From assembly GCF_008065095.1 (NCBI RefSeq), contig NZ_CP042911.1, forward strand, positions 3,630,001 through 3,662,000: 32,000 nucleotides of DNA. Direction: 5' to 3'. The notes under the pieces were generated by a model, which was not told the origin of the DNA, ran no database searches, and saw nothing but the letters and a program-made list of their open reading frames with translations. Position numbers and translations under genes: made by a program. Below are positions 4,144 through 31,898 of this stretch, in pieces (positions within the stretch are counted from its first letter, which is position 1; the number at the start of each line of letters is the position of its first letter). This DNA comes from Gemmata obscuriglobus. Lineage in GTDB: Bacteria > Planctomycetota > Planctomycetia > Gemmatales > Gemmataceae.

Positions 4144-4159
4144 GTGGTCGCGCGACCAC
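4144..4159. repeat. palindrome copy (16/16)
   Basis: Intergenic, 25 nt before ATG 4185. Confidence 0.95.
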
Positions 4160-5560: not shown

Positions 5561-6124
5561 ATGGCGGCGGTAGCAGCGGAGAGCGACGCCGATCTGTGTG
5601 CGGCGGTGTCGGCGGGCCGGGCGGCGGCGGACGCCCTCCTCAAGCGGCACGAGAAGCTGATCTGGTCGTGCGTCCACCGGCTCCAGTTGCCGGACTGGGT
5701 GGACCGCGACGACATCTTCCAGGCCGGTCAGGTGGCCTTGGCCCACGCGGCGACGAAGTGGACCGAGGGGGCCGGGGCCAAGTTCACGACTTACGCCCGC
5801 ACCGCGATCTGGAACGCGGTGGTGAACGAGTCCCGGAAGCAGCAGAAGAAGGCCACGAGCTTCGACGACCGGCCCAACGACCCGGACGGCTCGGACCTGC
5901 TTAACACCCTTGCCGCACCCGAACCCACCGACCCGCCGGAGTGGCTGGTGAAGGGCATCGGGCGGTTGTCGCCCGTCCTGCGGCGGGTCGTCGTGCTGCA
6001 CTTCGGGCTGGAAGGGGAGCCGCGGACGTGGGGCGAGATCGCGTCGGCCACCGGCATGACGGTCGCAGTGGCGAAGCGAGCACTGGAACTGGCACTGGCT
6101 CAACTCACCCCGCAGACCGTGTGA
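5561..6124 (+). CDS. sigma-70 family (group 4/ECF-like) RNA polymerase sigma factor
   Basis: Region-2-like DDIFQAGQVALAHAATKW..FTTYARTAIWNAVVNESRK and region-4 HTH-like LSPVLRRVVVLHFGLEGEPRTWGEIASATGMTVAVAKRAL. Confidence 0.75.
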   Translation: MAAVAAESDADLCAAVSAGRAAADALLKRHEKLIWSCVHRLQLPDWVDRDDIFQAGQVALAHAATKWTEGAGAKFTTYARTAIWNAVVNESRKQQKKATSFDDRPNDPDGSDLLNTLAAPEPTDPPEWLVKGIGRLSPVLRRVVVLHFGLEGEPRTWGEIASATGMTVAVAKRALELALAQLTPQTV

Positions 6125-6358: not shown

Positions 6359-6370
6359 TTCTGATCGGCC

Positions 6371-6378
6371 TACCATAA
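6371..6378 (+). promoter_or_regulatory. CGGCC-TACCATAA box (putative -10-type promoter element)
   Basis: cggccTACCATAA, 12 nt after a palindrome, upstream of the terminase genes. Confidence 0.4.
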
Positions 6379-11400: not shown

Positions 11401-12512
11401 CCGGGGATGGCGGGTACGCACGGGAAATCCTCGAACGGGCTCTCGAACTGCGGGTGGACGAGATCGACCCCAAGCGGGGCGAGTCGGCCGCCGCGTACAA
11501 ACAGCGGCTCGAGAACGACCACGGGTTCAAAAACCTGCCGCAACCCGAGGCGGGTGAGAGTGCGAAAGACTACTCCTACACGCCGGACATTGAGAACACG
11601 CGGTCCGATCGGAGCGACGCCGTCGCCGCGAATTGGCTCAGCGGGTTCGCCGACCACATCGCGAAAGCGTTCGGGAGTGGTCGCGCGACCACCTCATACG
11701 ACTGGGATGCGGGCGACCACCCACGCGGCCAGCCCGACAACGCCGGCCAGTTCGCACCGAAGGGCGGCGGCACAAAGGAGAGTGGCGACCGCCCAAAAGC
11801 TGACGCCGGTGGTCGCGCGACCACCGGCAACCTCCGGGACCGCCTGAACGATAAAGACGACCCGATCAACGCCGACGCGGGCCGTAGCGGTCGCGCGACC
11901 ACGCATGCGGATAAGGCGTCCAAACGGAATCGCCCGAAAGCCGTCGGGGTTGCGGGCGTGGTGGATGTGGCCCGGTCGCGGCGGATCAAGAAGGCTCACA
12001 AGGTCGAGCAGGAGGTCGCGGTCGCAGTTGAAGGGGCGAACCTGCCCGACAGCGAGCCGGCGGACGTGGTGTACATGCCAGACGCTCGGGGCAAGCCAAT
12101 CACGGACCCGGCCGAATCGAAGCGGTGGCTCGCCCAACGTGCCAAGGTACTTGCCGCTCACAACAAGCGGCAGGCGGGACAGGAACTCACCGCTGCCGAA
12201 CGGTCATTGGCCGAGGTGGCAGAAACGGTGCTGTCGAATCCGGCCCACTTCTTCGAGGTAAAAACCTTGCAGAAGGCACGACAGAACCGGGTGCGGATGA
12301 CTGCCGACGCCCTCGATAAGAAACGGGCATGGCAGGCGAAGTACAACGTGGTATTCTCCGTCGTCATCGTTGACGAGCGGAAGGGCTCGAAGCACTCGGG
12401 ACACCGAGTCTACGTCGCCCCCGCCACGCTCGAAAAGACGGTGTCGCTCGCCGATTGTGTAAAAGTCGGCAGCATCGCAGAGGTGCTCAAACACGCCCGG
12501 GGTGGCTCGTGA
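8415..12512 (+). CDS. portal-containing giant head protein (portal-like N-terminus plus long C-terminal extension)
   Basis: Uninterrupted 1365-codon frame with high GC3, directly downstream of terL. The portal call for the first ~460 aa rests on synteny only. Low-complexity linkers carry 5 copies of the 16-bp palindrome. Confidence 0.5.
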   Translation: MAIDKPVLWGADGNPLSQEGALLSPNALNVAQVIQNAGKMYSHTWDEAMRDAPQNALAMRRDPFYRSMLQERTSPTQNLDWEVAVPNEDDPVHRLQRDTLQRAWEELPDKPNLMYSLLDGALWWGRSGQQGMWGQSDSGLTNWLYHEPVHGDSIQHQWDRTPVILVSWQAKQKLERDDPECIISSSTRGAYGLRLYKPEYRKRFILHTHVREASDYYEGEMAGGVHGVGLRSWAYWGDYVRRDILAAMLGFMNSTGMMDLVIINYPDGNVEAEKRAIANAKKISGKLVLICPRDPSKDWPAVEQVPMNTAGVEVVQNLLENYFDRYTRELFVGQNMSNGGGGPGGLEGDGRAELAGDTKFQLCKTDARRLAETLTRDWLVPCRDYNFPGSKVPVTMKPILADPKAKEKAQNISVCVANGIEIEEDEARRALGFSKPREGKKTIGAKPAADPTNPTAPPGDGGAVARPPQPPKPDGGHDLATDFLQRIGRLEDLLMYRLNQPPWPGAVFDEQRHRWVNKDGSDGPQGGRATTAGNGNGQPAPQLGDADRDDIANGIDADVRAWKGEEIPPGLVQRAKDVALTIAAKTYIWATQATHSKAMATLGEVMGAVFDTPADMMKLGYNPSTSSGTSGAGVADPVKANLNDAFGVGVSGHLVASVASKVLVKAAYWVRNRTQKGEQPTALSLVALLYEGDQEPDGFFEWAEFIATVLQRTAKGIGSDAQMPDAATVERNLRALVEERQKAEGDDDLTGYAWDESQVKRDGDGQFAPKNGGEYGPDHPRTRKGRPVPRSAIRLAATSPDDADEIRKRLSVPAEREKFDAAVKAEKRRIGDARRKKRLDLAGKAAAAEGDRIGKMPAAARRLKLDGLAAELSQAANAIRSAHTVKQAKTELKAVKKRIATAAKDVRKAFGEEATRYAGTLGVPDRIAKEIGRGIASAAKYDNVPPLPTDAIEDALGEVNSAWSSGRRRDALKNLTDAFDASLDTSRVAAAVKDWAGDGGYAREILERALELRVDEIDPKRGESAAAYKQRLENDHGFKNLPQPEAGESAKDYSYTPDIENTRSDRSDAVAANWLSGFADHIAKAFGSGRATTSYDWDAGDHPRGQPDNAGQFAPKGGGTKESGDRPKADAGGRATTGNLRDRLNDKDDPINADAGRSGRATTHADKASKRNRPKAVGVAGVVDVARSRRIKKAHKVEQEVAVAVEGANLPDSEPADVVYMPDARGKPITDPAESKRWLAQRAKVLAAHNKRQAGQELTAAERSLAEVAETVLSNPAHFFEVKTLQKARQNRVRMTADALDKKRAWQAKYNVVFSVVIVDERKGSKHSGHRVYVAPATLEKTVSLADCVKVGSIAEVLKHARGGS
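9801..9816. repeat. palindrome copy (14/16), in CDS
   Basis: gcggtcgcgcgcccac; read as AVARPP in the 1365-aa ORF. Confidence 0.7.
9991..10006. repeat. palindrome copy (16/16), in CDS
   Basis: Read as GGRATT in the 1365-aa ORF. Confidence 0.95.
11677..11692. repeat. palindrome copy (16/16), in CDS
   Basis: Read as SGRATT in the 1365-aa ORF. Confidence 0.95.
11809..11824. repeat. palindrome copy (16/16; 22-bp palindrome 11806-11827), in CDS
   Basis: Read as GGRATT. Confidence 0.95.
11887..11902. repeat. palindrome copy (15/16), in CDS
   Basis: gcggtcgcgcgaccac; read as SGRATT. Confidence 0.9.
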
Positions 12513-13548: not shown

Positions 13549-13550
13549 CC

Positions 13551-13558
13551 TACCATAA
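13551..13558 (+). promoter_or_regulatory. TACCATAA box in front of an apparently leaderless gene
   Basis: TACCATAAggcATG; no SD; the ATG lies 5 nt after the TACCAT hexamer. Confidence 0.45.
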
Positions 13559-17698: not shown

Positions 17699-17714
17699 CC
17701 GGTCGCGCGACCAC
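17699..17714. repeat. palindrome copy (14/16); left edge of low-GC island
   Basis: ccggtcgcgcgaccac; immediately after TGA 17696-17698. Confidence 0.8.
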
Positions 17715-17773
17715 ATTCGATCAGATTGTGGGTTGGAGTTCGGAAATGCCGAGAACATCCGCCACTTCCAGCC

Positions 17774-17816
17774 ACAGCCAGGGAAAATGTTCAACTTGAA
17801 CATTTTCCCTGGCTGT
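17774..17816. repeat. 43-nt near-perfect palindrome (21-nt arms, 1-nt centre)
   Basis: acagccagggaaaatgttcaa-c-ttgaacattttccctggctgt. Confidence 0.9.
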
Positions 17817-18006
17817 CATCGGGTTCACGTCTGGTTAAATGCTGTCGGGGAGTGTGGCTGGAACCGAACTCTAAGGCCAAAAGACACGTACCTAACGTAG
17901 AGTTCTCTGCCACACGCGAATAAAATTCAAGTGACATCACCGGCACGTTTTTTTCACTGACTTCCCGCCCTGGACGGCTCAAAACCGCCTAGCGGTTGGA
18001 CGTGTC

Positions 18007-18014
18007 CTATGGTA
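18007..18014 (-). promoter_or_regulatory. TACCATAG box (weak), minus strand, inside the low-GC island
   Basis: + strand ctatggta; no palindrome or CGGCC in front. Confidence 0.2.
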
Positions 18015-18132
18015 CACGGGTGAACCTTGCCGGGATGACACGGTCCTTTTACTCTGTCGAAAGACCGTGCCTTGAACCGGGGTATTCCTAATTAGCGATG
18101 ACATCGCCTTTAATTCTGTTTCGAGGTGCCAG

Positions 18133-18582
18133 ATGACGGAAACGACCAGCCAGTCAGTTTCCCCAATCCGCCTCAACTCACAAGCCAAGGACAAACGGAT
18201 TTGGGTCGAGTTGCGGGATGGGGAAGAAGAACTCCTGTGGACGGTGGATCAGATCCTGACCGCCTGCCGGGCGTACAACCAGACAGTTTCTCTGGCCGAC
18301 GTTGATCGGCCAGTTCGTGAACTGTGGAAGGTGCTGAACGCTTGGTGCGTATCACAGAGTGACGCCATCAAAACAGCGTACCTGCAACCGACCGGGAACG
18401 GTCGGTTGCTGTTCCTCGTTGTTCAACCAGCAACCGGATTTGATCAGGAATTGACCGATGCGCTGACCGAACTGGACATGGACATCGCCAACGATGACCG
18501 GTTCGAGTTGGTAAAAATGGATGTTCGGTTGGTAACGCCAATGTCTCAGGAACAAGTAGACGCGATGCTGCGTCCACACTAA
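18133..18582 (+). CDS. hypothetical protein (low-GC island gene 1)
   Basis: ATG 18133 follows GAGGTG. 149 aa. Codon usage is clearly less GC3-biased than in flanking genes. Confidence 0.6.
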   Translation: MTETTSQSVSPIRLNSQAKDKRIWVELRDGEEELLWTVDQILTACRAYNQTVSLADVDRPVRELWKVLNAWCVSQSDAIKTAYLQPTGNGRLLFLVVQPATGFDQELTDALTELDMDIANDDRFELVKMDVRLVTPMSQEQVDAMLRPH

Positions 18583-18583
18583 T

Positions 18584-19078
18584 TTGTTCGGGGGATCGCC
18601 CTTGCCGACTGATGTTGAACACTTCGCCGCCGCTGCTCGAAATCAAGAACTAATTACACATCTGCTTCCGCAGATTTCAGTATTTCCTGATTGGGTGGCG
18701 GTGGCGGCGTTCTACAAGGCCATGCACCTCGCAGAGGCGGTTCTGTTCAGAACCTATCACGCCAAGCACACATTCGGCCACGACGACCGTCATCGCGTTC
18801 TTAAGAGCAATCGCCGGTACGAGCATATTTACAAGCATTACCGACCACTCTGGGAGGCGTCACTCGTAGCTCGTTACCTGGAAGTCCACAACGACGGATA
18901 TCCGAAGTTCACGGATTACATGGCAACTCCTGTTATTCAAGCGAAGCTGATCAACCATTATCTGAATCAGGTAGAGCAGGGCGTGACCCGGTTGCTGGGA
19001 TCGTGGCCTGTCAACGTTCCCCGGTGCGTCGCACAGCCACCGAACTCGCCACCTGCCGCCGCCACCACTGGATCGTGA
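18584..19078 (+). CDS. hypothetical all-helical protein (low-GC island gene 2); HEPN-like is only a guess
   Basis: TTG 18584 lies 1 nt after the upstream TAA (start uncertain). RNQELITH fits Rx4-6H. Helical pattern ..DWVAVAAFYKAMHLAEAVL... Confidence 0.45.
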   Translation: MFGGSPLPTDVEHFAAAARNQELITHLLPQISVFPDWVAVAAFYKAMHLAEAVLFRTYHAKHTFGHDDRHRVLKSNRRYEHIYKHYRPLWEASLVARYLEVHNDGYPKFTDYMATPVIQAKLINHYLNQVEQGVTRLLGSWPVNVPRCVAQPPNSPPAAATTGS

Positions 19079-19094
19079 CTGACCGCGCGACCAC
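19079..19094. repeat. palindrome copy (13/16); right edge of low-GC island
   Basis: ctgaccgcgcgaccac; immediately after TGA 19076-19078. Confidence 0.6.
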
Positions 19095-19201
19095 TTCAAC
19101 CGAGGCGGAAGAATCATTAGGGGTGGTGAACTTTTGATCATCTAGCGGGCGAGTCTGCGAATGCCATACTGGATGACATCTCGTCCAGTGGTAATTTGCC
19201 C

Positions 19202-19897
19202 ATGATGACCACACGCTGCCCGGGGTGTTCGGTTCTCGTTCGCGTGTCTGCGGAAGCAGCGGCGGCGGACCCTGCGTGTCCCCGATGCAGCTCTCCGTTA
19301 ATCTTGACCGTTGACGAGCCGAAGCCGATCACACGACCCAAATCAGCTCCTGTAGTGAACGAGCCCCCGCAGGAACGAGATTGGGAACCCGAACCGGAGC
19401 CGGAACAACCGGAACGGGAAGAGCCTGATCCCTACTACCGTCCGATTCGCCGGCGAAAAAAGAAGGGGCCACCGGTACTCGCCATTGCGACTGTTGGCGT
19501 TCTGTTCTTGGTTGCGATCGTGTCCGTTGTGGCGCTGCTGAACCGGGCCAAAAACGTTCAGGATCAGGCACGGGCAGCATCACAGAAGGGAACTGTTAAG
19601 AGCAGCCCACCGGTTCATTCCGAACGACCGATCGAAACACCAGTGCGGGCGACCGATTACAAGGACGAACTCGACCGCGAGGATTCGGAGCGGTTCGTAA
19701 CCCGAATACTCGCCCTTGCAATCGGTCTGCCGATCTACCTGCTTCCGACGGGCGTGGCGGTGTTTCGCCGGCACAACAATCTGGCTCCGATCGTGATAGT
19801 CAACGTGTTCCTCGGGCTCATTTTCGTCGGCTGGGTCGTCGCTTTGGCATGGTCCGTTTCCGACATGCGGCCCATGCGGACCGAGCGACCGGTTTGA
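19202..19897 (+). CDS. zinc-ribbon / transmembrane protein with C-terminal superinfection-immunity (T4 Imm-like, PF14373-type) domain
   Basis: N-terminus CPGC..CPRC. C-terminus IYLLPTGVAVFRRHNNLAPIVIVNVFLGLIFVGWVVALAWSV closely follows the Imm_superinfect pattern. Confidence 0.6.
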   Translation: MMTTRCPGCSVLVRVSAEAAAADPACPRCSSPLILTVDEPKPITRPKSAPVVNEPPQERDWEPEPEPEQPEREEPDPYYRPIRRRKKKGPPVLAIATVGVLFLVAIVSVVALLNRAKNVQDQARAASQKGTVKSSPPVHSERPIETPVRATDYKDELDREDSERFVTRILALAIGLPIYLLPTGVAVFRRHNNLAPIVIVNVFLGLIFVGWVVALAWSVSDMRPMRTERPV

Positions 19898-19914
19898 CTC
19901 CCGGAGGACACCAC

Positions 19915-20397
19915 GTGGACGACGACACCGAACTCCTCATTCTGCGGCGACGGCGGCAACAGAAACAAGCCCGCCGACGCATGATCTTGCTGGCCTCACT
20001 CGCCGGCGTCGGGGCCGTACTCCTCCTCGCCATCGTCGTCGTCGCAGGACGAGCCGGAAGCGGGCGCGCGACCACAAACGTGTTGGGGGGGCCGTCCAAC
20101 CACGCCGAACTGGCCGATTTGCTGCGATCGAAGGGTCTCCAGGTCAGCTACGAATCTGCTGGCCCGTTGATTGATCGCCCGGAACGTCCGACGTCCATTT
20201 TCACGATCGATGTTGCAGGCAAGCGTGGTCTATTAATGGTGCATCTGAACAAGAGCGAATCGGCTGCACGCGAGCAAGTCGCCACGATGGGTGGCAACGG
20301 GTTCGCGTGCAGCCGATTCGCTCTTGAAGTGTGGATGGCAGATGAAGAGTCGAAGTCTGTATTCCTGCAAGTAAAACGAACACTGGGCGTCAACTGA
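19915..20397 (+). CDS. membrane-anchored hypothetical protein
   Basis: GTG 19915 lies 6 nt after GGAGGA, within ORF 19849..20397. One TM helix (ILLASLAGVGAVLLLAIVVVAG). Confidence 0.5.
   Translation: MDDDTELLILRRRRQQKQARRRMILLASLAGVGAVLLLAIVVVAGRAGSGRATTNVLGGPSNHAELADLLRSKGLQVSYESAGPLIDRPERPTSIFTIDVAGKRGLLMVHLNKSESAAREQVATMGGNGFACSRFALEVWMADEESKSVFLQVKRTLGVN
20060..20075. repeat. palindrome copy (14/16), in CDS
   Basis: gcgggcgcgcgaccac; read as SGRATT. Confidence 0.7.
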
Positions 20398-20407
20398 GAG
20401 GACGCCC
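20385..20407. terminator. hairpin spanning the convergent stops of genes 19915..20397 and 20390..21472
   Basis: gggcgtc-aactgagag-gacgccc; no U-tract. Confidence 0.25.
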
Positions 20408-21472
20408 GCCACTCGGGTACACGTGACCAGAGCGGCTGGCAGCGATCCGAGCTGTAGCGGCCATGCGGCCCAGCTCTGCGTCGATCCGAGCCGCCTCTCG
20501 CTCAATTCGCTCCGCATCAGCAGCAATCCCAGTAGACGCTGCCTTCTTGGATTCTTCTTCGCTCTTCTTTTTCTGCCTGTCGAGCAGCAGACCCATTACT
20601 CCGGCGGTCTTCAGTACGGGCGAGTTCGCAATTGCCTCTGTTGCGGCACTGATGATCCGCAGTGGGGGCACCAGGAGATCGTTCAGGAGAGCCAAAATCT
20701 CGTTCTTGGTGTTCGCCAAGACATTTTCTAAACCTTCGCTTGCGTCCTTGCGACGCTGTTCCGATTTTGCCAGTACGCCCGTCGAGCCCGCCTGAGCGTT
20801 GCCCTGCCGCCGGTCGCGCAACATCTCTTGGATGTCGCGCTGGGCAAGGACGGCCGCCATCGGTCCCGACACTTCCGCCAGCTTCCGGGCAGCGGCGATC
20901 TGCTCATCCGTAGCCTGGATGACAGCCTTTTTAAACTGGTTGAGGGCGTCCCCGACTGCGACAATGGCCCCGATCGGCCCGGCCAGACGGGCGAGACCCG
21001 CCGCCCCGCCAGTGAGTCCGCCCAGACCCGTCGGCCCCTTCCCACCCAGAAACTCGCCCACACCCTTAGTTGCGTTCGCGGACGCTTTACCGAACCGCGA
21101 GTTGTTCCAGAGCCTACGGAGGAACCCCGGCTCTTCTTCCTTTGGCGTTGTTGGCTTCGGCGGCCCTGGTAGTCCGCCCTGACCGGGCAGTCCGCCCACG
21201 ATCGACACCTGGAGCGGCTTTGGCCCCACGACGATCACCGATTGCGGGCGGTCGAACGCCGACACGACGCCGTTCTGCTCGCGGGCCGTGGTCGCGTGCT
21301 CGTGCTCCAGGGCGATCTCGCCCGGAAGAGCGATGATTGACTTGTGCAAGTCTTCGATCGCAAAAGACAGCGCCGCTTGGCTCGCGGCGGCCACCGTTTG
21401 CGACACCTTCGAGACATCCACCAAATCTCCCAGCGACTTGATGACATCATCGAGAGTCGAATCCCCGCCCAT
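20390..21472 (-). CDS. tape-measure-like protein (short, 360 aa)
   Basis: Minus-strand ATG 21472 preceded by AGGAGAAGG. Gly-rich hydrophobic segments (GLGGLTGGAAGLARLAGPIGAIVAVGD). Position after the chaperone. Confidence 0.5.
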   Translation of the reverse strand: MGGDSTLDDVIKSLGDLVDVSKVSQTVAAASQAALSFAIEDLHKSIIALPGEIALEHEHATTAREQNGVVSAFDRPQSVIVVGPKPLQVSIVGGLPGQGGLPGPPKPTTPKEEEPGFLRRLWNNSRFGKASANATKGVGEFLGGKGPTGLGGLTGGAAGLARLAGPIGAIVAVGDALNQFKKAVIQATDEQIAAARKLAEVSGPMAAVLAQRDIQEMLRDRRQGNAQAGSTGVLAKSEQRRKDASEGLENVLANTKNEILALLNDLLVPPLRIISAATEAIANSPVLKTAGVMGLLLDRQKKKSEEESKKAASTGIAADAERIEREAARIDAELGRMAATARIAASRSGHVYPSGGRPLS

Positions 21473-21483
21473 AACCTTCTCCT

Positions 21484-21499
21484 GTGGTCGCGCGACCAC
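21484..21499. repeat. palindrome copy (16/16)
   Basis: Between the GT-frame stop (21502-21504) and minus-strand ATG 21472. Confidence 0.95.
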
Positions 21500-21501
21500 C
21501 T

Positions 21502-22049
21502 TCAGCCCCGACCACTGATAGCCTCAACGACACATGCTGCGATGCTCTCGTAACGGGCCACCGCCGCTTCCTCTACTCGCTTGCGACCGGCCCAGACGCC
21601 GACGAAGGTGCGGTAGGGGAGTCGAGCGGGATCGAGGGCGAAGCCCGCGGCGGCGAGATCGAGAAAGGGCGGGCACTTGCGGCGAGTTGCTGCAAGAACG
21701 CCAGGAATCTGAACAGCACAAGCAGTCGCTCAGCTTCCGTCAGTCCGGCCGCCCCGTCCAGCGGTCGCAGCCCGAACATGGCGTCCGCGGCCTTGACGAG
21801 TGCCGTCACTGCGTCCGCTTTCTTCTGCTTCATGTCGGCGGCGACGGGCGTACCGGCCATTGCGGCGGCGAGGTCCGCCGGCACCTCGTGCGCGAGCACC
21901 CGGAGCCGATCCTCGTAGTCCGGGCACGATTCTTCGAGGACCCGGCCCGCAACCATCGGATCGGCCCGCCGTGTCGCGGTGCCGTCGAAGTACGCGAAGA
22001 TCTGCCGCTGGTGGTCACGCGACCACCAGCGGCGAAGGAAACCGAACAT
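21502..22049 (-). CDS. tail assembly chaperone, -1 frameshift fusion (GT-like), predicted
   Basis: The -1 frame is open from the slip site (21663-21669) to TGA (21504-21502). It has no start codon of its own. It encodes the protein-like sequence LDLAAAGFALDPARLPYRTFVGVWAGRKRVEEAAVARYESIAACVVEAISGRG. Confidence 0.5.
21573..22049 (-). CDS. tail assembly chaperone (G-like, 0-frame product)
   Basis: Lies between the tube-like and tape-measure-like genes. Contains an in-phase C_CCT_TTC slippery heptamer. Confidence 0.5.
   Translation of the reverse strand: MFGFLRRWWSRDHQRQIFAYFDGTATRRADPMVAGRVLEESCPDYEDRLRVLAHEVPADLAAAMAGTPVAADMKQKKADAVTALVKAADAMFGLRPLDGAAGLTEAERLLVLFRFLAFLQQLAASARPFSISPPRASPSIPLDSPTAPSSASGPVASE
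21663..21669 (-). other. -1 programmed frameshift slippery heptamer C_CCT_TTC
   Basis: + strand gaaaggg. The phase is exactly X_XXY_YYZ relative to the chaperone 0 frame (codons P128 F129). Confidence 0.55.
22011..22026. repeat. palindrome copy (15/16), in CDS
   Basis: gtggtcacgcgaccac; read as WWSRDH near the chaperone N-terminus. Confidence 0.85.
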
Positions 22050-22061
22050 GCTGCTACCTCG

Positions 22062-22568
22062 TTACAGGGCTCGGGTGTAGAGCGGGGTGTTGACCGCCGA
22101 AACGGTGGACGCGGGCGCGAACGGCCACGCGAAAAACGTGAGGTTCACCGGCTTGTTGCCCACGGACATCGGGATGCGGGCGTTCGGCCGGAGAACGCAG
22201 TGCAAGAACTTCCACGGGGTGTCATCGGACGCCGCAATGCCGATGGCGAAGTCGTCCCCGTTGGTTCCCACGAGTCGGCCGGGGGTGTTGAGCTGGCCTG
22301 CGGCCCCGCGGTTGCCCCGGTTGAGCACCTTGGTCAGGACGGCCGGGTCGATACTGATGAGCGGGCAGGTGATCGTCGCCACCTCCCCGAAGTCTTGAAG
22401 CTCGTGGGGCGTCATCTCACCGAACACGTCGGAGAAGATCTCCTTGTAGTTCTTGCTGATGTCGATATCGACCCCGCCTTGGGCGTACCCGAGCATTTCC
22501 TGCGCGGCGGCCGTGCCGGTGTAGGAATACACGATCGCCGGCCCCGTCCGCCAAAAACCGACCGCCAT
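22062..22568 (-). CDS. tail tube-like protein (by synteny)
   Basis: 168 aa, first gene of the minus-strand operon, upstream of the chaperone and tape-measure-like genes. Confidence 0.4.
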   Translation of the reverse strand: MAVGFWRTGPAIVYSYTGTAAAQEMLGYAQGGVDIDISKNYKEIFSDVFGEMTPHELQDFGEVATITCPLISIDPAVLTKVLNRGNRGAAGQLNTPGRLVGTNGDDFAIGIAASDDTPWKFLHCVLRPNARIPMSVGNKPVNLTFFAWPFAPASTVSAVNTPLYTRAL

Positions 22569-22612: not shown

Positions 22613-22628
22613 GTGGTCGCGCGACCAC
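22613..22628. repeat. palindrome copy (16/16) in divergent intergenic region
   Basis: 17 nt before ATG 22646; 6 nt from the minus-strand TACCATAT box. Confidence 0.95.
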
Positions 22629-22645: not shown

Positions 22646-24532
22646 ATGTCGGTCATCGAATACAACTCGATCCGGTTCCACTTCGCCAAAACCGCGAGCG
22701 TCGAGTTCGATACGTCCCGCGACAAGAGTGGCGTGGACGTGATCGCCAACACGACCACGATCCGGGCTCGCGGCGTCGCCTCGCTCACCTCGCAGGTGCC
22801 GGGCGATTCAGCCGCCTTGCTGCCCACCATCCGACACATGCTGAACATGCCCCGGCGGCGACTCCTGTATCAAGTGGGGGGATACACCATCATCTCCCAA
22901 TCCGGGATGGACGCCCAGCTCGGGCCGACCCCGGTCAAGCCCGCCACCGTCGAGCCGGCGGGCAACGGCACCTTCTTCGTGGACGTGGCGTACAAGGTCA
23001 GCACCTACGACTGTGGCGAGGCGGCCTTGTCCGACCCCGTTACCTCCCTCCGCTGGACGCAGTCCGAGAGCTTCGACGACCGCTGGTTCTCCACCATCAC
23101 CACGTCCGGCACCCTGACCGTCCGGAGCGACCTGAACCAGTGCGCCGACAACTTCCGGCAGTTGGCGACGCCCCCGATCCTCGACGACTACCAACGCGTG
23201 TCCGCCAAGTACACCCTCGCACCCGACGGGCTCAGCCTGGACTTCGAGTTCACCGACCAAGAGAAATCGCTTCTCCCCCCGTACCCGGCCGTAGTTGCTG
23301 ATGGCGATTTTAACGTCATTTGCCCGCAGAACCATAAACGCACAGGAGTAGTCACAATCACGCTCGAAGGGGCAAAGGGGTGTAGTCGGAAAGACCTGAT
23401 GTTCGTTGGGCTGCGGATGGCAATCGCGAAACTCAAAGCCGAAGGATTCATCGACGGCTCCCCTCTCATGTGGGGCAATTTCTCGGAAAATCTGTTCCGG
23501 CCAGTAGTGAAGGTAAGTGTCCAGGCACTTCTCGCCACACTCGGTGGGACTGGTTTCGCTGGTGCGGCGGCGGCTAGTCTCGGCGCCGCCGCGGCCGGGA
23601 TGAATGGCCCGGCGGTGATGCGGAGCGTCGGCTACACGCCAGGAGTGCAGGAGGGCCGGTCGGGAATCGCCCCGCCGGTCCGTAAGCGGTTGCTCGGGCT
23701 CCTGGCCGCCGCGTTCCGAGACCCATGTGCGGCCAGCGAGGGCTTCACGGCCGAGCTGCGGAACGACCGTGGCGGATCGGGGTCCAACGCCGAACTCTCG
23801 ACCGGCGGTGCGTCACTCTCCACACCGCCCGCCGAACTCGTGACCGGAACGACCGGCGGGGCCGGCACATCCCCGATCAAGGACTACGCACCGTATGACC
23901 TGTACCGCATCCAGTTCGAGTACACGCAAGATACGGGGAAGCGGGTGATGCCGGGAACCGGCGTCGGTGACACGCCCCAGCGGGGCACGGCGGTGACCGT
24001 CCACGGGGGGCAAATGTTTCTGGAGGTAAGTTGGGCATGCCAGAGAACTGGCAGGCCGCCCCAGATCCCGTCGTTCTCCGTGAACGATCCGAACCTCGTT
24101 GCCATTGGCGGGACGTGCATCCCGGCCGAGATGCAGCTTTCCGCGGACGGGAGCGCCCCGACGTATCGCGTCGCCGGCCACTACATCTATGGCGTGTTGG
24201 ACCCGTCATTGGTGTCACTCACGGCCCCGGTGCCACCATATTTCAGCGATGGCGTGCTCACCACCGCACCGAACATCGCCAACTTTACGGCCCCCGTTGT
24301 CCGGACCGGGAGCAGCGGCTCCGGGTACAGCGGTGGGGGGGACTACGGAAGCAACATCTTCGTTCCTGAGCGCGAGCCCTCGCTTTCCGTCGAGCCCCCG
24401 TCGCAATTGGACCTGTTCGGCATCCCCGGCCCGATCGGCGGCGGGTTTCCGTTCGCCGGCCCTCCGGGTGGGTTGGGCTCTGGCGATACGGGGGGCGGCG
24501 GGCTCCTTCCCACAAACCCCGTGAACCCGTAG
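22646..24532 (+). CDS. large virion (tail/baseplate-like) protein, hypothetical
   Basis: ATG 22646 follows GGAGGGGG, within ORF 22601..24532. 628 aa with a Gly-rich C-terminus. Carries two sequences homologous to array spacers. Confidence 0.6.
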   Translation: MSVIEYNSIRFHFAKTASVEFDTSRDKSGVDVIANTTTIRARGVASLTSQVPGDSAALLPTIRHMLNMPRRRLLYQVGGYTIISQSGMDAQLGPTPVKPATVEPAGNGTFFVDVAYKVSTYDCGEAALSDPVTSLRWTQSESFDDRWFSTITTSGTLTVRSDLNQCADNFRQLATPPILDDYQRVSAKYTLAPDGLSLDFEFTDQEKSLLPPYPAVVADGDFNVICPQNHKRTGVVTITLEGAKGCSRKDLMFVGLRMAIAKLKAEGFIDGSPLMWGNFSENLFRPVVKVSVQALLATLGGTGFAGAAAASLGAAAAGMNGPAVMRSVGYTPGVQEGRSGIAPPVRKRLLGLLAAAFRDPCAASEGFTAELRNDRGGSGSNAELSTGGASLSTPPAELVTGTTGGAGTSPIKDYAPYDLYRIQFEYTQDTGKRVMPGTGVGDTPQRGTAVTVHGGQMFLEVSWACQRTGRPPQIPSFSVNDPNLVAIGGTCIPAEMQLSADGSAPTYRVAGHYIYGVLDPSLVSLTAPVPPYFSDGVLTTAPNIANFTAPVVRTGSSGSGYSGGGDYGSNIFVPEREPSLSVEPPSQLDLFGIPGPIGGGFPFAGPPGGLGSGDTGGGGLLPTNPVNP

Positions 24533-24541: not shown

Positions 24542-25081
24542 CCTTCAATTCGGCCACGGGCTTACACCCGTGGAGAGCGGCCCGGCTTCGGCACCAGACT
24601 CGCCAGTAAGGCGCTTCAATTCGGCCACGGCGTTCAACCCGTGGAGACTCGGTCAGCCCGGCCGTCCCGTCCAGCGGCTTCAACCCGCTTCAATTCGGCC
24701 ACGGGTGCAAACCCGTGGAGAGGGCTGGTGACGATCGAATCGCTTCCGAAACGTCGCTGCTTCAATTCGGCCACGGGGGTCAACCCGTGGAGAGGCGACG
24801 CCCCCGATCCTCGACGACTACCAGCGGACGCTTCAATTCGGCCACGGGTGCAAGCCCGTGGAGAGACCGCTCGCCGTTCGATCGTGGCATAATTCGAGCC
24901 TGCTTCAATTCGGCCACGGAGATCAGCCCGTGGAGACCTCCCCGATACGGGACTACGCACCGTATGACCTGTAGCTTCAATTCGGCCACGGGAATCAACC
25001 CGTGGAGGTGGCTTCTTCGCTACACGGTAACACTCCGCACACGCCACTTCAATTCGGCCACGGGTGCGAATCTGTGGGGAG
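24542..25081. CRISPR. orphan CRISPR-like array, 8 repeats / 7 spacers, no cas genes in window
   Basis: 36-nt repeats at 24542, 24613, 24687, 24759, 24830, 24902, 24974 and 25046. Consensus GCTTCAATTCGGCCACGG-N7-CCCGTGGAGAG. Spacers are 35, 38, 36, 35, 36, 36 and 36 nt. The last repeat is degenerate (TCTGTGGGGAG). Confidence 0.8.
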
Positions 25082-25125: not shown

Positions 25126-25308
25126 TCACTCCCGTGCGAACACGCAGCACACGAGCGCGACGAGCGTCGTGAACGTGGCGATACACGCGGCCGAGAACAA
25201 CCCGTACAGACCGCTCAGGGCGACGATCGCCCCGTACATCGCACCGCCCAATCCCTGGCGGGCGACGCGGCGGGCACGGACCAGAAAACGCGGGATGCTG
25301 ATTCTCAC
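25126..25308 (-). CDS. small single-pass membrane protein (60 aa)
   Basis: Minus-strand GTG 25308 follows CGGAG and lies 24 nt downstream of a palindrome copy. TM segment GAIVALSGLYGLFSAACIATFTTLVALVCCVF. Confidence 0.45.
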   Translation of the reverse strand: MRISIPRFLVRARRVARQGLGGAMYGAIVALSGLYGLFSAACIATFTTLVALVCCVFARE

Positions 25309-25332
25309 AGTGGGCTCCGGGTTGGGGGCGAA

Positions 25333-25348
25333 GTGGTCGCGCGACCAC
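25333..25348. repeat. palindrome copy (16/16; 20-bp palindrome 25331-25350)
   Basis: Between minus-strand genes, 24 nt upstream of GTG 25308. Confidence 0.95.
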
Positions 25349-25349
25349 T

Positions 25350-25628
25350 TCAGTTGGTGGCGTTCTTCGCGGTGCAGATCGGGCACCCCGGATCGGGGCG
25401 GTGCGGGTGCCGCGGGCAACACGTCGTCACCCGCACCGCGAACGTGCGATACCGGCACTCCTCGCAGTCGCAGTCGCCCATCGGCACGTCCCCGCGGTGA
25501 CCGCACTCGTAACAGTACGTCGGCACGTTCGCGTACACGCGGTTCAGCGTCTTGCACCACGAACACGCGGTCCGGTGGATGGTGCCGCAGACCGGCTCGT
25601 CGGTCCGCAGGGCGTGACGGTTCGGCAT
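25350..25628 (-). CDS. Cys-rich zinc-binding small protein (92 aa)
   Basis: Minus-strand ATG 25628 lies 7 nt after AAGGAG. More than 12 Cys in CxxC-type pairs (CSWC, CYEC, CDCEEC, CPIC). Confidence 0.6.
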   Translation of the reverse strand: MPNRHALRTDEPVCGTIHRTACSWCKTLNRVYANVPTYCYECGHRGDVPMGDCDCEECRYRTFAVRVTTCCPRHPHRPDPGCPICTAKNATN

Positions 25629-25713: not shown

Positions 25714-25986
25714 TCAGACATTCAGTGGTCGCCAGTCGCCCCACTGGTTGTTGCGTTCCATCCAGGCCGATGCGACGAACCGGCCGTCTGTCGTCCGCAC
25801 CCACACCTCGGCCCGGGGCCGTTCCCACTCGTCGTTGGCCCCGATCCACACGATGCGCCAGCCGGGCGGCATGGGGCGGATGGGGGCCGGGAAACCGTCC
25901 GGAACCCAGAACGCGTCCGCGTAAACCGGTTGGTCGGCGGCGTCCAGTTCACGAATCCACTGAGGCACTTCGGAGCAGCGGGACAC
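25714..25986 (-). CDS. Trp-rich small hypothetical protein (90 aa)
   Basis: Minus-strand GTG 25986 lies 6 nt after GGAGG and 24 nt downstream of a palindrome. The upstream part of ORF 25714..26454 reads through the palindrome and is rejected. Confidence 0.5.
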   Translation of the reverse strand: MSRCSEVPQWIRELDAADQPVYADAFWVPDGFPAPIRPMPPGWRIVWIGANDEWERPRAEVWVRTTDGRFVASAWMERNNQWGDWRPLNV

Positions 25987-26027: not shown

Positions 26028-26330
26028 TCAGAACGCCATCTCCACAACGTCCGCCCTCCGCTTCCGCCACTCGCCCCAACTCCGCGTCCGGTGCGACCAC
26101 GTGAGCGAGTACCGCCAGTCCCGGTCGTAATACACCACCCGCAGCGAGCCCGGCGGCGTCGCCATCACGCTCACGGGAACCAGACCCCGCGGCGGGCGGT
26201 TCCGGCCCCGCGGCAACCCGTCCACCCAACCGATACCCGTCAGGTGGATCTTCCCGTTCCGCATCTCGAACGGCACCGGAGACCACTTCAGCCGATTGAC
26301 CGATTTGCGAGAATTGAGTAACGTAGACAT
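26028..26330 (-). CDS. Trp-rich small hypothetical protein (100 aa), loosely similar to the preceding one
   Basis: ATG 26330 follows GAGGTG. The stop abuts palindrome 26011-26026. Confidence 0.55.
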   Translation of the reverse strand: MSTLLNSRKSVNRLKWSPVPFEMRNGKIHLTGIGWVDGLPRGRNRPPRGLVPVSVMATPPGSLRVVYYDRDWRYSLTWSHRTRSWGEWRKRRADVVEMAF

Positions 26331-26389: not shown

Positions 26390-26428
26390 AATTTCGTGTC
26401 GGGCAACCACCGCTCGACAGGGATACAA

Positions 26429-26469
26429 TAAGGCGACATGCCCTTGTTTGTCAAGGCGATGTCGCCTTA
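26429..26469. promoter_or_regulatory. operator-like inverted repeats upstream of the XRE gene
   Basis: TAAGGCGACAT (26429-26439) and ATGTCGCCTTA (26459-26469). Inner dyad AAGGCGA-TG-TCGCCTT at 26453-26468. TTGTCA at 26448-26453 is -35-like. Confidence 0.45.
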
Positions 26470-26487: not shown

Positions 26488-26757
26488 ATGGCCATCCCAG
26501 CCGTGGCGAAGAAAAACATCAGGACCGGCTTTGGGAAGCGACTCCGCGAGTTGCGGATCGACAAGAATTTGACTCAATCCCAGCTCGGTGAGCGTGCCGG
26601 GATGATGTACCAAGATGTAGCGAAACTCGAACGTGGCGAACGTGAGCCGATGTGGGCTACCGTCATTCGCTTGGCTGATGCTCTTGGCGTGCGGGCTGAT
26701 GACTTCCGCACGCTCGAAGATCCGTTGGCCGATCTCCCGGAGTTGCCGCTGGAGTGA
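26488..26757 (+). CDS. XRE/Cro-CI family HTH regulator
   Basis: In-frame ATG 26488. KRLRELRIDKNLTQSQLGERAGMMYQDVAKLERGEREP is a classic HTH_3 pattern. Confidence 0.8.
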   Translation: MAIPAVAKKNIRTGFGKRLRELRIDKNLTQSQLGERAGMMYQDVAKLERGEREPMWATVIRLADALGVRADDFRTLEDPLADLPELPLE

Positions 26758-29504: not shown

Positions 29505-29510
29505 CGGCCC

Positions 29511-29518
29511 TACCATAA
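29511..29518 (+). promoter_or_regulatory. CGGCCC-TACCATAA box
   Basis: palindrome-cggccc-TACCATAA, 33 nt before ATG 29552. Confidence 0.4.
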
Positions 29519-31884: not shown

Positions 31885-31890
31885 CCGGTC

Positions 31891-31898
31891 TACCATAA
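31891..31898 (+). promoter_or_regulatory. TACCATAA box in front of an apparently leaderless gene
   Basis: TACCATAAatcATG; same 5-nt spacing as at 13551; no SD. Confidence 0.45.

What the first reader, a model, noticed from the sequence alone, without database searches (positions are those of the whole stretch)
24542..25081. Cas-less CRISPR-like array embedded in the tail module of a phage-like element
Eight 36-nt direct repeats are separated by seven unique 35-38-nt spacers. The array starts 9 nt after the TAG (24530-24532) of a 628-aa virion gene. Genes on both sides carry the element-specific 16-bp palindrome at their junctions, so the array lies inside the element rather than next to it. 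I recognise no cas-like ORF in the 32 kb, and there is no AT-rich leader on either flank. Three of the 7 spacers are diverged copies of this element's own tail genes (see the three findings below). That pattern is expected if the array is used against related competing phages, as described for virus-borne mini-arrays in archaeal viruses and for arrays on some large phages. It also fits a captured host array or a repeat-mimic RNA anti-CRISPR. I am not aware of such an array being described for Planctomycete-type phages.
Basis: partly seen in the sequence, partly recalled or inferred. Interest (0 to 1): 0.93.

Follow-up and report, generated by a model that had tools for sequence, protein, structure and literature searches.

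The report
Prophage-borne cas-less type I-G CRISPR array
A prophage of the planctomycete Gemmata obscuriglobus carries its own seven-spacer CRISPR array but no cas genes; it probably borrows the host's type I-G CRISPR machinery to shut out closely related phages, a strategy already described for other viruses.

Summary
In detail: eight 36-nt repeats and seven unique 35-38-nt spacers lie at 24542-25081. The window is part of a prophage of at least 48 kb in Gemmata obscuriglobus UQM 2246. No cas gene occurs from about 8 kb left to 10 kb right of the window. The repeat belongs to a family that sits beside type I-G cas genes in many Gemmataceae. It has a 7-bp hairpin, a 4-nt linker and an 8-nt AUUGAAGC handle, which places the sense strand on the window's minus strand. 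The host has a complete I-G locus elsewhere, with at least 111 identical repeats that share the same 14-nt 3' end. Four of the seven spacers (S1, S2, S4, S6) derive from homologues of the adjacent 168-, 158- and 628-aa genes, and most differences preserve the encoded peptide. Each resident copy is disabled by seed mismatches, by lack of a TTN PAM, or by a non-homologous patch. The best reading is a leaderless, phage-borne array that uses host Cascade-Cas3 to exclude kin phages. This kind of system is already known. Two things are unusual: there are seven spacers, and every repeat has a different hairpin loop while stem and handle stay invariant. No perfect target was found, and expression was not tested.

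The parts
24542..25081 (-). CRISPR array: 8 repeats and 7 spacers, type I-G repeat family, no adjacent cas genes. Sense strand is the minus strand, so it is transcribed from 25081 towards 24542.
   Evidence: Orientation comes from host arrays that lie co-directional with I-G cas genes and from the published I-G repeat architecture.
25046..25081 (-). Repeat R8, the first one transcribed: CTCCCCACAGATTCGCACCCGTGGCCGAATTGAAGT. The 5' half of the hairpin is degenerate. The 3' half and the handle that would cap spacer S7 are intact apart from the last base.
   Evidence: Weak fold of -3.8 kcal/mol.
24974..25009 (-). Repeat R7: ACCTCCACGGGTTGATTCCCGTGGCCGAATTGAAGC
   Evidence: 7-bp hairpin, -13.3 kcal/mol.
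24902..24937 (-). Repeat R6: GTCTCCACGGGCTGATCTCCGTGGCCGAATTGAAGC
24830..24865 (-). Repeat R5: CTCTCCACGGGCTTGCACCCGTGGCCGAATTGAAGC
24759..24794 (-). Repeat R4, identical to the consensus: CTCTCCACGGGTTGACCCCCGTGGCCGAATTGAAGC
24687..24722 (-). Repeat R3: CTCTCCACGGGTTTGCACCCGTGGCCGAATTGAAGC
24613..24648 (-). Repeat R2: GTCTCCACGGGTTGAACGCCGTGGCCGAATTGAAGC
24542..24577 (-). Repeat R1, the last one transcribed: CTCTCCACGGGTGTAAGCCCGTGGCCGAATTGAAGG. Only the final base, which no crRNA needs, differs from the consensus outside the loop.
24578..24612 (-). Spacer S1 (35 nt). On the window's + strand it encodes RPGFGTRLASK, matching the 168-aa-gene homologue of a related phage contig (L154: RPGFGTRLATK, 27/35 nt).
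   Evidence: Peptide score 54 against a null mean of 36.7 and maximum of 46.
24649..24686 (-). Spacer S2 (38 nt), 31/38 identical to the prophage's own 158-aa gene
24723..24758 (-). Spacer S3 (36 nt), no match found
24795..24829 (-). Spacer S4 (35 nt), 31/35 identical to the prophage's own 628-aa gene, with an identical encoded peptide ATPPILDDYQR
24866..24901 (-). Spacer S5 (36 nt), no match found
24938..24973 (-). Spacer S6 (36 nt), 32/36 identical to the prophage's own 628-aa gene (SPIRDYAPYDL against SPIKDYAPYDL)
25010..25045 (-). Spacer S7 (36 nt), the first one transcribed, no match found
22156..22190 (-). Resident patch orthologous to the source of S1, in the 168-aa gene. It is only 14/35 identical to S1 (RPNARIPMSVGN against RPGFGTRLASK), so the prophage's own copy is not targetable.
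21736..21773 (-). Resident near-copy of S2 in the 158-aa gene. The PAM-side flank is TTC, but there are mismatches at crRNA positions 4, 7, 8, 9, 22, 30 and 36.
23165..23199 (-). Resident near-copy of S4 in the 628-aa gene. Mismatches fall at crRNA positions 1, 2, 3 and 6 (the seed), and the flank is GAC, not TTN.
23869..23904 (-). Resident near-copy of S6 in the 628-aa gene. The seed is intact (positions 1-24 identical), but the flank is CGG, not TTN.
   Evidence: TTN PAM taken from PMC9638904.
22646..24532 (+). 628-aa gene of unknown function, the source gene family of S4 and S6. In relatives it lies in the virion/tail module. Its stop codon is 9 nt from the array, and it converges on the array.
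   Evidence: The structure model matches only uncharacterised phage proteins.
22062..22568 (-). 168-aa gene with a weak Ig-domain PHROG hit, the source gene family of S1
21573..22049 (-). 158-aa gene, the source gene family of S2
25126..25386 (-). Small ORF directly upstream of the array on the sense strand. The gene call gives 86 aa. An alternative 60-aa start at GTG 25308 follows the palindrome and a GGAG. The C-terminus is hydrophobic, and the stop is 44 nt before repeat R8.
25350..25628 (-). 92-aa ORF of the leftward unit, function unknown
   Evidence: Homologue in the array-less relative L143.
25714..25986 (-). 90-aa ORF of the leftward unit, function unknown
26028..26330 (-). 100-aa ORF, the first gene of the leftward unit
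26425..26454 (-). Sigma-70-like promoter match (TTGACA-18-TATTGT) facing left. It is a candidate promoter for the unit that ends in the array. This is a consensus match only.
26488..26757 (+). HTH_3 / cI-Cro-like regulator, divergent from the leftward unit

Best explanation
This is a leaderless, cas-less CRISPR array of the type I-G repeat family, carried as accessory cargo by a temperate phage integrated in Gemmata obscuriglobus.

Proposed mechanism:
- The array is transcribed leftward on the minus strand, as the 3' end of a unit of small ORFs that starts at the divergent regulatory region near 26.4 kb.
- The host's Csb2 (a Cas5-Cas6 fusion) binds each 7-bp hairpin and cuts 4 nt downstream.
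- This releases seven crRNAs, each with the 8-nt handle AUUGAAGC, a 35-38-nt spacer and a 3' hairpin.
- The crRNAs load into host Cas7g/Cas8g Cascade. When a closely related phage injects DNA carrying matching protospacers next to a PAM (TTN in studied I-G systems), Cas3g is recruited and the competitor is destroyed.
- The result would be heterotypic superinfection exclusion that protects the prophage and its lysogen.

At least four guides are aimed at allelic variants of the 168-, 158- and 628-aa genes that sit next to the array. The resident alleles escape through seed mismatches, loss of the PAM, or a non-homologous patch.

Shown: the anatomy, the repeat family and its link to I-G cas genes, the presence of a complete host I-G system, the origin of four spacers, and the disabling differences at the resident sites.

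Inferred: transcription, processing by the resident host's Csb2, the PAM in Gemmata, and the existence of the targeted phages.
For: Repeat family and subtype:
- The repeat motif occurs in at least 120 genome loci, overwhelmingly Gemmataceae and other Planctomycetota.
- About 30 of these loci encode type I-G Cas proteins next to the array.
- The repeat has the published I-G architecture: 36 nt, 7-bp stem, cleavage 4 nt beyond the stem, 8-nt handle (PMC9638904; folds).

Host system:
- G. obscuriglobus has cas4/1, cas2, cas3g, cas8g, cas7g and csb2 plus at least 111 identical repeats. These share TCTCC, the hairpin geometry and the last 14 nt with the prophage repeat.

Selection on the repeats:
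- In repeats R1-R7 only columns 1, 2, 12-18 and 36 vary; 18 of 23 differences fall in the 8 loop columns (binomial 2e-8).
- The damaged parts are the 5' half of the first-transcribed repeat and the last base of the last repeat. No crRNA needs either.

Spacers:
- Spacer lengths of 35-38 nt match host arrays (mode 36-37).
- S1, S2, S4 and S6 match homologues of the neighbouring genes, and most differences leave the encoded peptide unchanged or conservatively changed.
- Every resident site carries seed mismatches, a non-TTN flank, or a non-homologous patch.

Relatives:
- Related viral contigs carry I-G mini-arrays with the same near-self pattern: L148/L007 24/24 nt, L008 21/21 nt.
- A closer relative (L143) has the same gene order but no array, so the array is cargo.

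Literature:
- The same pattern is published for virus-borne mini-arrays (PMC6858448; PMC11656645).
Against: - No perfect protospacer was found for any spacer. The searches covered IMG/VR, metagenome relatives, all fetched loci and INPHARED phages.
- The prophage repeat is only 27/37 identical to the resident host's repeat, but 33/36 identical to an array in another Gemmata species. Processing by the resident Csb2 is therefore not assured.
- No leader and no convincing dedicated promoter were found. The only promoter-like match is 1.4 kb upstream.
- The first-transcribed repeat has a weakened hairpin, which could impair maturation of the S7 crRNA.
- The PAM for Gemmata I-G is not known. One host-spacer near-match gave no usable PAM.
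- The loop heterogeneity is not explained by the exclusion model.
Confidence: 0.6

Rival explanations
1. RNA anti-CRISPR or decoy. The array is expressed to flood host Csb2, Cas7g and Cas8g with phage-chosen or useless guides. This would dilute the host's 110 or more crRNAs and blunt I-G immunity against the phage itself, as repeat-mimic Racr RNAs do.
For: Stem and handle, the parts Csb2 and Cascade need, are conserved while the loops drift. No target was found for any spacer. Racr candidates are reported for almost all CRISPR types in viruses (PMC10651486).
Against: Racrs are solitary repeat units without full-length spacers. This locus has seven spacers of canonical length, and four were sampled from homologues of phage genes with mostly peptide-preserving differences. 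A decoy does not need that. Seven extra guides would barely dilute a host array of at least 111 units unless expression were very high. No host spacer targets this prophage, so there is no obvious immunity to suppress in this host.
Confidence: 0.12
2. Inert relic. The array is a fragment of a bacterial I-G array picked up by illegitimate recombination, or once functional in a former host, and is now decaying without function in G. obscuriglobus.
For: There is no leader. The repeats are heterogeneous, unlike host arrays, which average 0.98 pairwise identity. The first-transcribed repeat is degenerate. The repeat is closer to another Gemmata species' array (33/36) than to the resident host's (27/37). 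No targets were found.
Against: Decay should hit all 36 positions. Instead, 26 columns are invariant in seven repeats and the changes are confined to the loop and the extreme ends (2e-8). Spacers S4 and S6 keep perfect runs of 29 and 24 nt shared with a protein-coding gene, and S1 keeps an open frame encoding a homologous peptide. That is hard to reconcile with drift strong enough to randomise the loops. A random host-array fragment would not be enriched for spacers from the carrier phage's own neighbouring gene family (4 of 7).
Confidence: 0.15
3. Self-regulatory cr-like RNAs. Partially matching guides direct Cascade to bind, without cleavage, the prophage's own 158- and 628-aa genes and repress them during lysogeny.
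For: Partial spacer-target complementarity is the hallmark of repeat-like regulatory RNAs in cas loci (10.1101/2023.03.03.530964). S6 pairs over positions 1-24 with its resident site. Some heterogeneous mini-arrays of this family sit inside cas loci, for example L096 and L071.
Against: Type I binding needs a PAM and a seed. S4 and S2 are mismatched in the seed, and S6 lacks a TTN flank. S1 has no resident target at all (14/35). The targets lie inside coding regions, not at promoters.
Confidence: 0.04
4. Not CRISPR at all. The hairpin repeats serve as a transcription-terminator or RNA-stability element between two convergent transcription units.
For: The array sits exactly between convergent units: the 628-aa gene on the + strand and the small ORFs on the - strand. 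Its hairpins fold on either strand.
Against: The repeat is 33/36 identical to bona fide I-G array repeats and shares their invariant 14-nt 3' end. The spacing and spacer lengths are CRISPR-like. The spacers are phage-gene fragments. No U-tract follows the hairpins, and the terminator scan reports none in the array.
Confidence: 0.02

Closest known systems
Virus-borne mini-CRISPR arrays (Sulfolobales portogloboviruses SPV1/SPV2, Medvedeva et al. 2019, PMC6858448; phage and prophage mini-arrays surveyed by Faure et al. 2019, as summarised in PMC11656645)
   Same: The array lies inside a viral genome and the element has no cas genes. The repeats belong to the host's CRISPR family. The spacers derive from genes of closely related viruses, notably genes adjacent to the array. 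The carrier's orthologous sites are mutated, so it does not target itself. The phage examples are also leaderless.
   Different: There are seven spacers instead of the defining one or two. The repeats are not identical to the resident host's repeat (27/37). Every repeat has a different hairpin loop. The subtype is I-G and the host phylum is Planctomycetota. Reciprocal targets have not been found.
Chromosomal type I-G (formerly I-U) CRISPR-Cas arrays of Gemmataceae, for example G. obscuriglobus ABGO01000047.1 (L145)
   Same: The repeat is 36 nt with a 7-bp hairpin, a 4-nt linker and an 8-nt handle. The last 14 nt (GGCCGAATTGAAGC) are identical. Spacers are 34-40 nt.
   Different: Host arrays are long (up to 111 or more units), their repeats are identical, and they are preceded by a lower-GC leader and the cas operon. 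The prophage array has none of these.
RNA anti-CRISPRs (Racr; solitary repeat units in phages, PMC10651486)
   Same: These are repeat mimics encoded by phages and prophages without cas genes, and they rely on binding by the host Cas6-type enzyme.
   Different: Racrs are single repeats without canonical spacers. This locus is a regular array with full-length, phage-derived spacers.
Prophage-located CRISPR arrays of Clostridioides difficile and the array of cyanophage N-1
   Same: These are multi-spacer arrays carried by temperate or lytic phages. They use host-type repeats and have spacers against other phages.
   Different: They involve different subtypes and hosts. As far as I recall, those arrays have homogeneous repeats.

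Membership tests
Type I-G CRISPR repeat family | 36-37-nt repeat with an internal hairpin of about 7 bp, followed by a 4-nt linker and an 8-nt 5'-handle sequence (AUUGAAGC here) | tested here: met
   Seven of eight repeats fold into a 6-8-bp hairpin at positions 5-24 with a 12-nt single-stranded tail, CCGA + AUUGAAGC. The architecture is as described for I-G in PMC9638904.
Type I-G CRISPR repeat family | The same repeat motif is found next to type I-G cas genes (csb1/cas7g, csb2, cas3g) in genomes | tested here: met
   NCBIfam equivalog hits to Csb1, Csb2 and Cas3g beside arrays L069, L072 and L083. tblastn shows about 30 loci with I-G Cas proteins beside such arrays. The G. obscuriglobus locus is L145.
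Type I-G CRISPR repeat family | Spacers are unique and fall within the family's length range | tested here: met
   Spacers here are 35-38 nt, against host modes of 36-37 nt.
Complete CRISPR-Cas locus | cas genes adjacent to the array | tested here: not met
   There are no Cas hits in the window or in the prophage flanks, from about 8 kb left to 10 kb right.
Complete CRISPR-Cas locus | AT-rich leader with a promoter upstream of the first repeat | tested here: not met
   The flanks are 67-69% GC, against 49% for the host leader. A small ORF ends 44 nt before the first-transcribed repeat.
Virus-borne mini-CRISPR array | Located within a viral or proviral genome | tested here: met
   Integrase, Mu-type portal, other phage genes and the lineage-specific palindrome lie on both sides. 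Synteny with viral contig L148 supports this.
Virus-borne mini-CRISPR array | Only one or two spacers | tested here: not met
   There are seven spacers. In size this is an ordinary small array, not a mini-array.
Virus-borne mini-CRISPR array | Repeats identical or nearly identical to those of the host's CRISPR system | tested here: inconclusive
   It is the same family with an identical 14-nt 3' end, but only 27/37 columns are identical to the resident host's repeat. It is 33/36 identical to another Gemmata species' array.
Virus-borne mini-CRISPR array | Spacers target related viruses but not the carrier | tested here: inconclusive
   Four of seven spacers are diverged homologues of the carrier's own neighbouring genes, and the resident sites are disabled. 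No perfectly matching phage was found.
Virus-borne mini-CRISPR array | Transcribed, processed by host Cas proteins, and conferring exclusion of the targeted virus | not testable with these tools
   This needs small-RNA sequencing and interference assays.
RNA anti-CRISPR (Racr / solitary repeat unit) | A solitary repeat unit without a canonical spacer array | tested here: not met
   There are eight regularly spaced repeats with full-length spacers. No solitary copy occurs elsewhere in the window.

The most novel reading that the evidence does not exclude
Phages of this Gemmataceae lineage may carry a distinct class of 'hard-wired' guide cassettes. These would be leaderless, multi-spacer I-G arrays in which every repeat has been individually diversified. 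In the window the diversification is in the hairpin loop. In relatives such as L008 and L117 it extends to the stem, through compensatory changes. The handle and the hairpin geometry are kept throughout. Such diversification could reflect selection for recombination-resistant arrays in a recombinogenic phage genome. It could also be the footprint of a non-canonical route of array assembly, unit by unit, by recombination rather than Cas1-Cas2 and leader-driven integration. In this reading, spacers are retained only where they straddle the boundaries that distinguish self from kin.
Probability: 0.3. Interest if true: 0.65.

Novelty: new member of a known kind. Interest (0 to 1): 0.5.

Why it matters
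It extends virus-borne, cas-less CRISPR arrays used in virus-versus-virus conflict to Planctomycetota and to subtype I-G, the least studied type I system. G. obscuriglobus is culturable, has published genetic tools (PMC4910669, seen), and carries both the prophage array and a complete cognate cas locus. Phage hijacking of host Cascade for kin exclusion can therefore be tested directly. The loop-diversified repeats give a natural map of which repeat positions Csb2 and Cascade tolerate. They may also inform the design of recombination-stable multiplex arrays. The near-self spacers show how a prophage avoids targeting itself, through seed mismatches, PAM loss or a divergent patch. They also suggest which genes diversify under CRISPR-mediated competition between phages.

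Tried and rejected
- Rfam at gathering thresholds found nothing in the window.
- Tandem Repeats Finder does not report the array because the spacers are unique.
- INPHARED phages, blastn with 8 kb around the array: no match.
- IMG/VR relatives of the 628-aa protein: none.
- A metagenome scan with a 17-sequence profile of that protein returned only distant relatives (38-44% identity), none matching a spacer.
- Exact 24-nt cores of S1, S3, S5 and S7 in IMG/VR: no hits.
- About 1,770 spacers from host I-G arrays, including 110 from G. obscuriglobus, were compared with the prophage and its relatives to derive a PAM. There were no usable hits.
- Function of the 628-aa protein: no Pfam, PHROG or PDB-sequence hit. 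The AF2 model has mean pLDDT 62. There is no PDB fold match, and only uncharacterised phage proteins match in BFVD.
- The idea that cas genes sit just outside the window was rejected from the flank gene calls and tblastn.
- The idea that the palindrome is genome-wide was rejected for the host DNA sampled, about 20 kb. The whole genome could not be scanned.
- The plus-strand reading of the repeat was rejected, because all cas-linked arrays read ...ATTGAAGC in the cas direction.
- I considered whether each loop was inherited from a different host array. None of the host repeat variants collected has these loops, but the sampling is limited.
Full report
OBSERVATION

The array is real and sits where stated. 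Eight 36-nt repeats start at 24542, 24613, 24687, 24759, 24830, 24902, 24974 and 25046, with a period of 71-74 nt. Seven unique spacers of 35-38 nt separate them. The 18-nt repeat core occurs eight times in the window, all in the array, against 0.05 expected by chance. The array begins 9 nt after the TAG of a 628-aa gene (22646-24532) that independent gene calls confirm. Rfam's curated models do not recognise the repeat.

WHERE THE WINDOW COMES FROM

Exact protein look-ups place the window in Gemmata obscuriglobus UQM 2246 (GCA_000171775.1, contigs ABGO01000025.1 and ABGO01000282.1). Several independent read-set assemblies carry the identical array.

The window is part of a prophage:
- A tyrosine integrase lies about 8 kb left of the window start (L133).
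- It is followed by helicases, an SNF2-methylase fusion, a DnaN-like clamp, a sigma factor, a Mu-type portal and a Mu gp36-like protein.
- Beyond the right edge, at least 8-10 kb of further phage genes follow.

The palindrome GTGGTCGCGCGACCAC occurs 38 times in the window with up to 2 mismatches. It usually sits between a stop codon and the next ribosome-binding site. It runs through the whole prophage and through related elements in other Gemmata species. It is absent from about 20 kb of G. obscuriglobus chromosome examined and from 128 other loci. The array is therefore inside the element. No Cas protein is encoded anywhere in the roughly 50 kb inspected.

WHAT KIND OF REPEAT

Read on the minus strand, the consensus is CTCTCCACGGG-TTGACC-CCCGTGG-CCGA-ATTGAAGC.

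A two-copy search for the motif CCGAATTGAAG at CRISPR spacing gave 8 viral contigs and at least 120 genome loci. The genome loci are overwhelmingly Gemmataceae and other Planctomycetota. Arrays of this family sit directly downstream of, and co-directional with, type I-G genes:
- Csb1/Cas7g, Csb2 and Cas3g are identified by NCBIfam equivalog models.
- About 30 loci show this linkage by tblastn.

The architecture matches the biochemically characterised I-G repeat: 36 nt, a 7-bp hairpin, and Csb2 cleavage 4 nt 3' of the stem to leave an 8-nt 5' handle (PMC9638904). Seven of the eight repeats fold this way at -10 to -15 kcal/mol. The functional strand is therefore the window's minus strand, and the array converges on the 628-aa gene.

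THE HOST HAS THE MACHINERY

G. obscuriglobus encodes a complete I-G locus on another contig (L145):
- It contains a cas4/cas1 fusion, cas2, cas3g, a cas8g-like gene, cas7g/csb1 and csb2.
- A leader of about 800 nt follows, with 49% GC in its last 100 nt.
- At least 111 perfectly identical repeats come next: GTTCTCCGCGGCTCATAGCCGCGGCCGAATTGAAGC.

The prophage repeat shares TCTCC, the hairpin geometry and the last 14 nt with the host repeat. It differs in stem pairs that stay complementary (for example G:C to A:U at the third pair) and in the loop. Overall, 27 of 37 aligned columns are identical. The prophage repeat is closer (33/36) to an array in a Gemmata sp. MAG (L021). None of the host's 110 spacers matches the prophage.

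SELECTION ON THE REPEATS

Host arrays of this family are homogeneous: 44 arrays of 10 or more repeats have mean pairwise identity 0.98, and many have more than 50 identical copies. In the prophage array, no two repeats have the same loop, and mean pairwise identity is 0.84.

The variation is sharply confined:
- In R1-R7 only columns 1, 2, 12-18 and 36 vary.
- 18 of 23 differences fall in the 8 loop columns (binomial 2e-8).
- Columns 3-11 and 19-35, which hold the stem and the handle, are invariant.

The only damaged elements are the 5' half of the first-transcribed repeat (25081-25046) and the last base of the last-transcribed repeat. No crRNA needs either. This is the signature of purifying selection for production of crRNAs on the minus strand. 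It argues against an inert relic.

SPACERS

S2, S4 and S6 resemble the prophage's own genes: 31/38, 31/35 and 32/36 nt. Shuffled spacers reach 60% identity on average and 66% at most.

S1 is a fourth case. It encodes RPGFGTRLASK, against RPGFGTRLATK in the 168-aa-gene homologue on a related metagenomic contig (L154). The nucleotide match is 27/35, and most differences are synonymous. The resident gene has a different patch at that position, only 14/35 identical.

At peptide level S1, S2, S4 and S6 score 54-60, against a null mean of 36.7 and maximum of 46. S3, S5 and S7 score at background.

Four of seven spacers therefore come from homologues of the three genes immediately left of the array (158, 168 and 628 aa). 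Their substitutions are those expected between functional alleles: synonymous changes and conservative replacements such as K/R.

In crRNA orientation, the resident sites are all disabled:

| Spacer | Resident site | Why the resident copy is not targetable |
|---|---|---|
| S1 | 22156-22190 | Non-homologous patch, 14/35 identical |
| S2 | 21736-21773 | TTC flank is present, but mismatches at positions 4, 7, 8 and 9 |
| S4 | 23165-23199 | Mismatches at seed positions 1-3 and 6, and a GAC flank |
| S6 | 23869-23904 | Seed intact, but a CGG flank |

TTN is the I-G PAM reported in the literature. It has not been verified for Gemmata.

RELATIVES

The 628-aa protein has 21 homologues, all from Gemmata genomes or metagenomes.

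In distant relatives (L148, L149, L150, L153), one co-directional module runs in this order: portal, capsid-region genes, gp36-like, 168 aa, 158 aa, 360 aa, 628 aa, 462 aa, and on to 672 aa. The 628-aa gene therefore belongs to the virion, probably tail, module. Its function remains unknown, because only uncharacterised phage proteins match its structure model.

In the window, two things are inserted between the 628-aa and 462-aa genes: the array, and a block of about 7 kb holding small ORFs, three HTH genes and ThyX.

A closer relative (L143, 59% identity) has the same architecture, including homologues of the small leftward ORFs, but no array. The array is accessory cargo.

Other viral contigs carry mini-arrays of the same repeat family:
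- L148/L007 encodes homologues of many genes of this prophage. It has a 3-repeat array 2 nt after its portal gene, and one spacer copies 24/24 nt of that portal gene.
- L008 has 7 repeats whose stems differ by compensatory changes, and one spacer copies 21/21 nt of its own contig.
- In both contigs the seed end is the mismatched part.

The near-self pattern recurs in these two viral contigs, and repeat heterogeneity recurs in several more. Some heterogeneous mini-arrays of the family lie inside cas loci (L096, L071). Those may be the regulatory repeat-like elements described elsewhere, so not every small array is phage-borne.

MECHANISM

On the sense strand the array follows four small ORFs (26330 to 25126). 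The last ORF ends 44 nt before the first repeat. A sigma-70-like promoter match at 26454-26425 faces left and is divergent from a cI/Cro-like HTH gene. There is no leader.

The most economical model has these steps:
1. The array is co-transcribed with the leftward unit.
2. Host Csb2 processes the transcript into crRNAs.
3. The crRNAs load into host Cascade.
4. Cas3g destroys incoming kin phages that carry the matching alleles.

This is the mechanism proposed and tested for virus-borne mini-arrays (PMC6858448; PMC11656645). Those papers report the same details seen here: targets adjacent to the array, resident sites mutated, and phage examples without a leader.

Transcription, processing, the PAM and the target phages are inferred, not shown. 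No perfect target was found in any collection searched.

RIVALS

- A decoy or Racr role is possible. It does not explain canonical-length spacers derived from phage genes, and it does not fit the definition of a Racr as a solitary repeat.
- An inert relic is disfavoured by the selection pattern on the repeats and by the intact coding-like spacers.
- Self-regulation is disfavoured because the resident sites lack a seed or a PAM.
- A non-CRISPR hairpin element is disfavoured by the 33/36 identity to bona fide I-G repeats.

UNEXPLAINED

The reason every loop differs is unknown. Simple neutral drift strong enough to randomise the loops sits uneasily with spacers that keep perfect runs of 24-29 nt, unless the spacers are themselves under selection. 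Two alternatives remain: selection against repeat-repeat recombination, or unit-by-unit assembly by recombination. The second has been suggested for leaderless phage mini-arrays. This is the most novel open aspect.

VERDICT

The finding is a new member of a known kind: a virus-borne, cas-less CRISPR array used in inter-viral conflict. Its notable particulars are subtype I-G, a planctomycete host, seven spacers, and loop-diversified repeats. Interest is moderate at 0.5.

Noticed in passing
window 262-31856 (38 sites, e.g. 4144-4159, 22613-22628, 25333-25348); also L133, L138, L140-L143: A perfect 16-bp palindrome, GTGGTCGCGCGACCAC, recurs about once per gene. It usually sits just after a stop codon and 10-30 nt before the next RBS and start codon. 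It is specific to this phage lineage. It is absent from about 20 kb of host chromosome and from 128 other loci. Its function is unknown; it could be an operator, an RNA-processing site or a terminator-like signal.
   Followed up: partly
window 6370-6378, 13550-13558, 29510-29518, 31890-31898: The motif CTACCATAA follows several of the palindromes. There are 6 matches with up to 1 mismatch against 0.7 expected. It may be a promoter element for the phage-encoded sigma factor at 5561-6124.
   Followed up: no
window 17700-21500: A low-GC island (53-61% against 65%) interrupts the structural module and carries a superinfection-immunity (Imm_superinfect) gene at 19202-19897. The next three genes (20390-22568) are inverted relative to relatives L148 and L153.
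   Followed up: partly
window 8415-12512: The portal ORF is 1365 aa. The Mu-portal domain covers only about the first 430 residues, so a large C-terminal extension has unknown function.
   Followed up: no
L008 1819-2288 (IMGVR_UViG_2671180531_000010); L117 5124-5306 (Zavarzinella formosa scaffold 6): Other small I-G-type arrays show within-array compensatory changes in the hairpin stem, for example CCGTGG.../...CACGG, CGGGGT/ACCCCG and CCGCGG/CCGCGG within one array. The handle is kept.
   Followed up: partly
L148 2761-2936 and 1809-1843; L008 615-649: Related viral contigs carry mini-arrays in which a spacer is a partial copy (24/24 and 21/21 nt) of the carrier's own sequence about 1 kb away. 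The PAM-proximal end is mismatched. In L148 the array sits 2 nt after the portal gene, and that spacer copies the portal gene.
   Followed up: yes
L095 (Z. formosa chromosomal I-G array) against L117 1515-1551: A spacer in the host's chromosomal array matches 31/37 nt of a site 3.6 kb from the mini-array-bearing locus in the same genome. This may be a host spacer against a resident element that has since escaped.
   Followed up: no
L013 365-434 and 562-1212: A two-repeat heterogeneous array in a Planctomycetia MAG lies next to a ThyX gene that is 68% identical to the window's phage ThyX (30638-31567). This suggests another prophage-borne array in the same lineage.
   Followed up: no
L141 and L142 (Gemmata sp. 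G18, two loci): The four-gene cassette (about 333, 156, 169 and 631 aa) occurs twice in one genome. It sits near integrase-like genes and, in L141, next to an McrBC system, without an obvious full phage structural module in the 22 kb shown. The cassette may move between elements.
   Followed up: no
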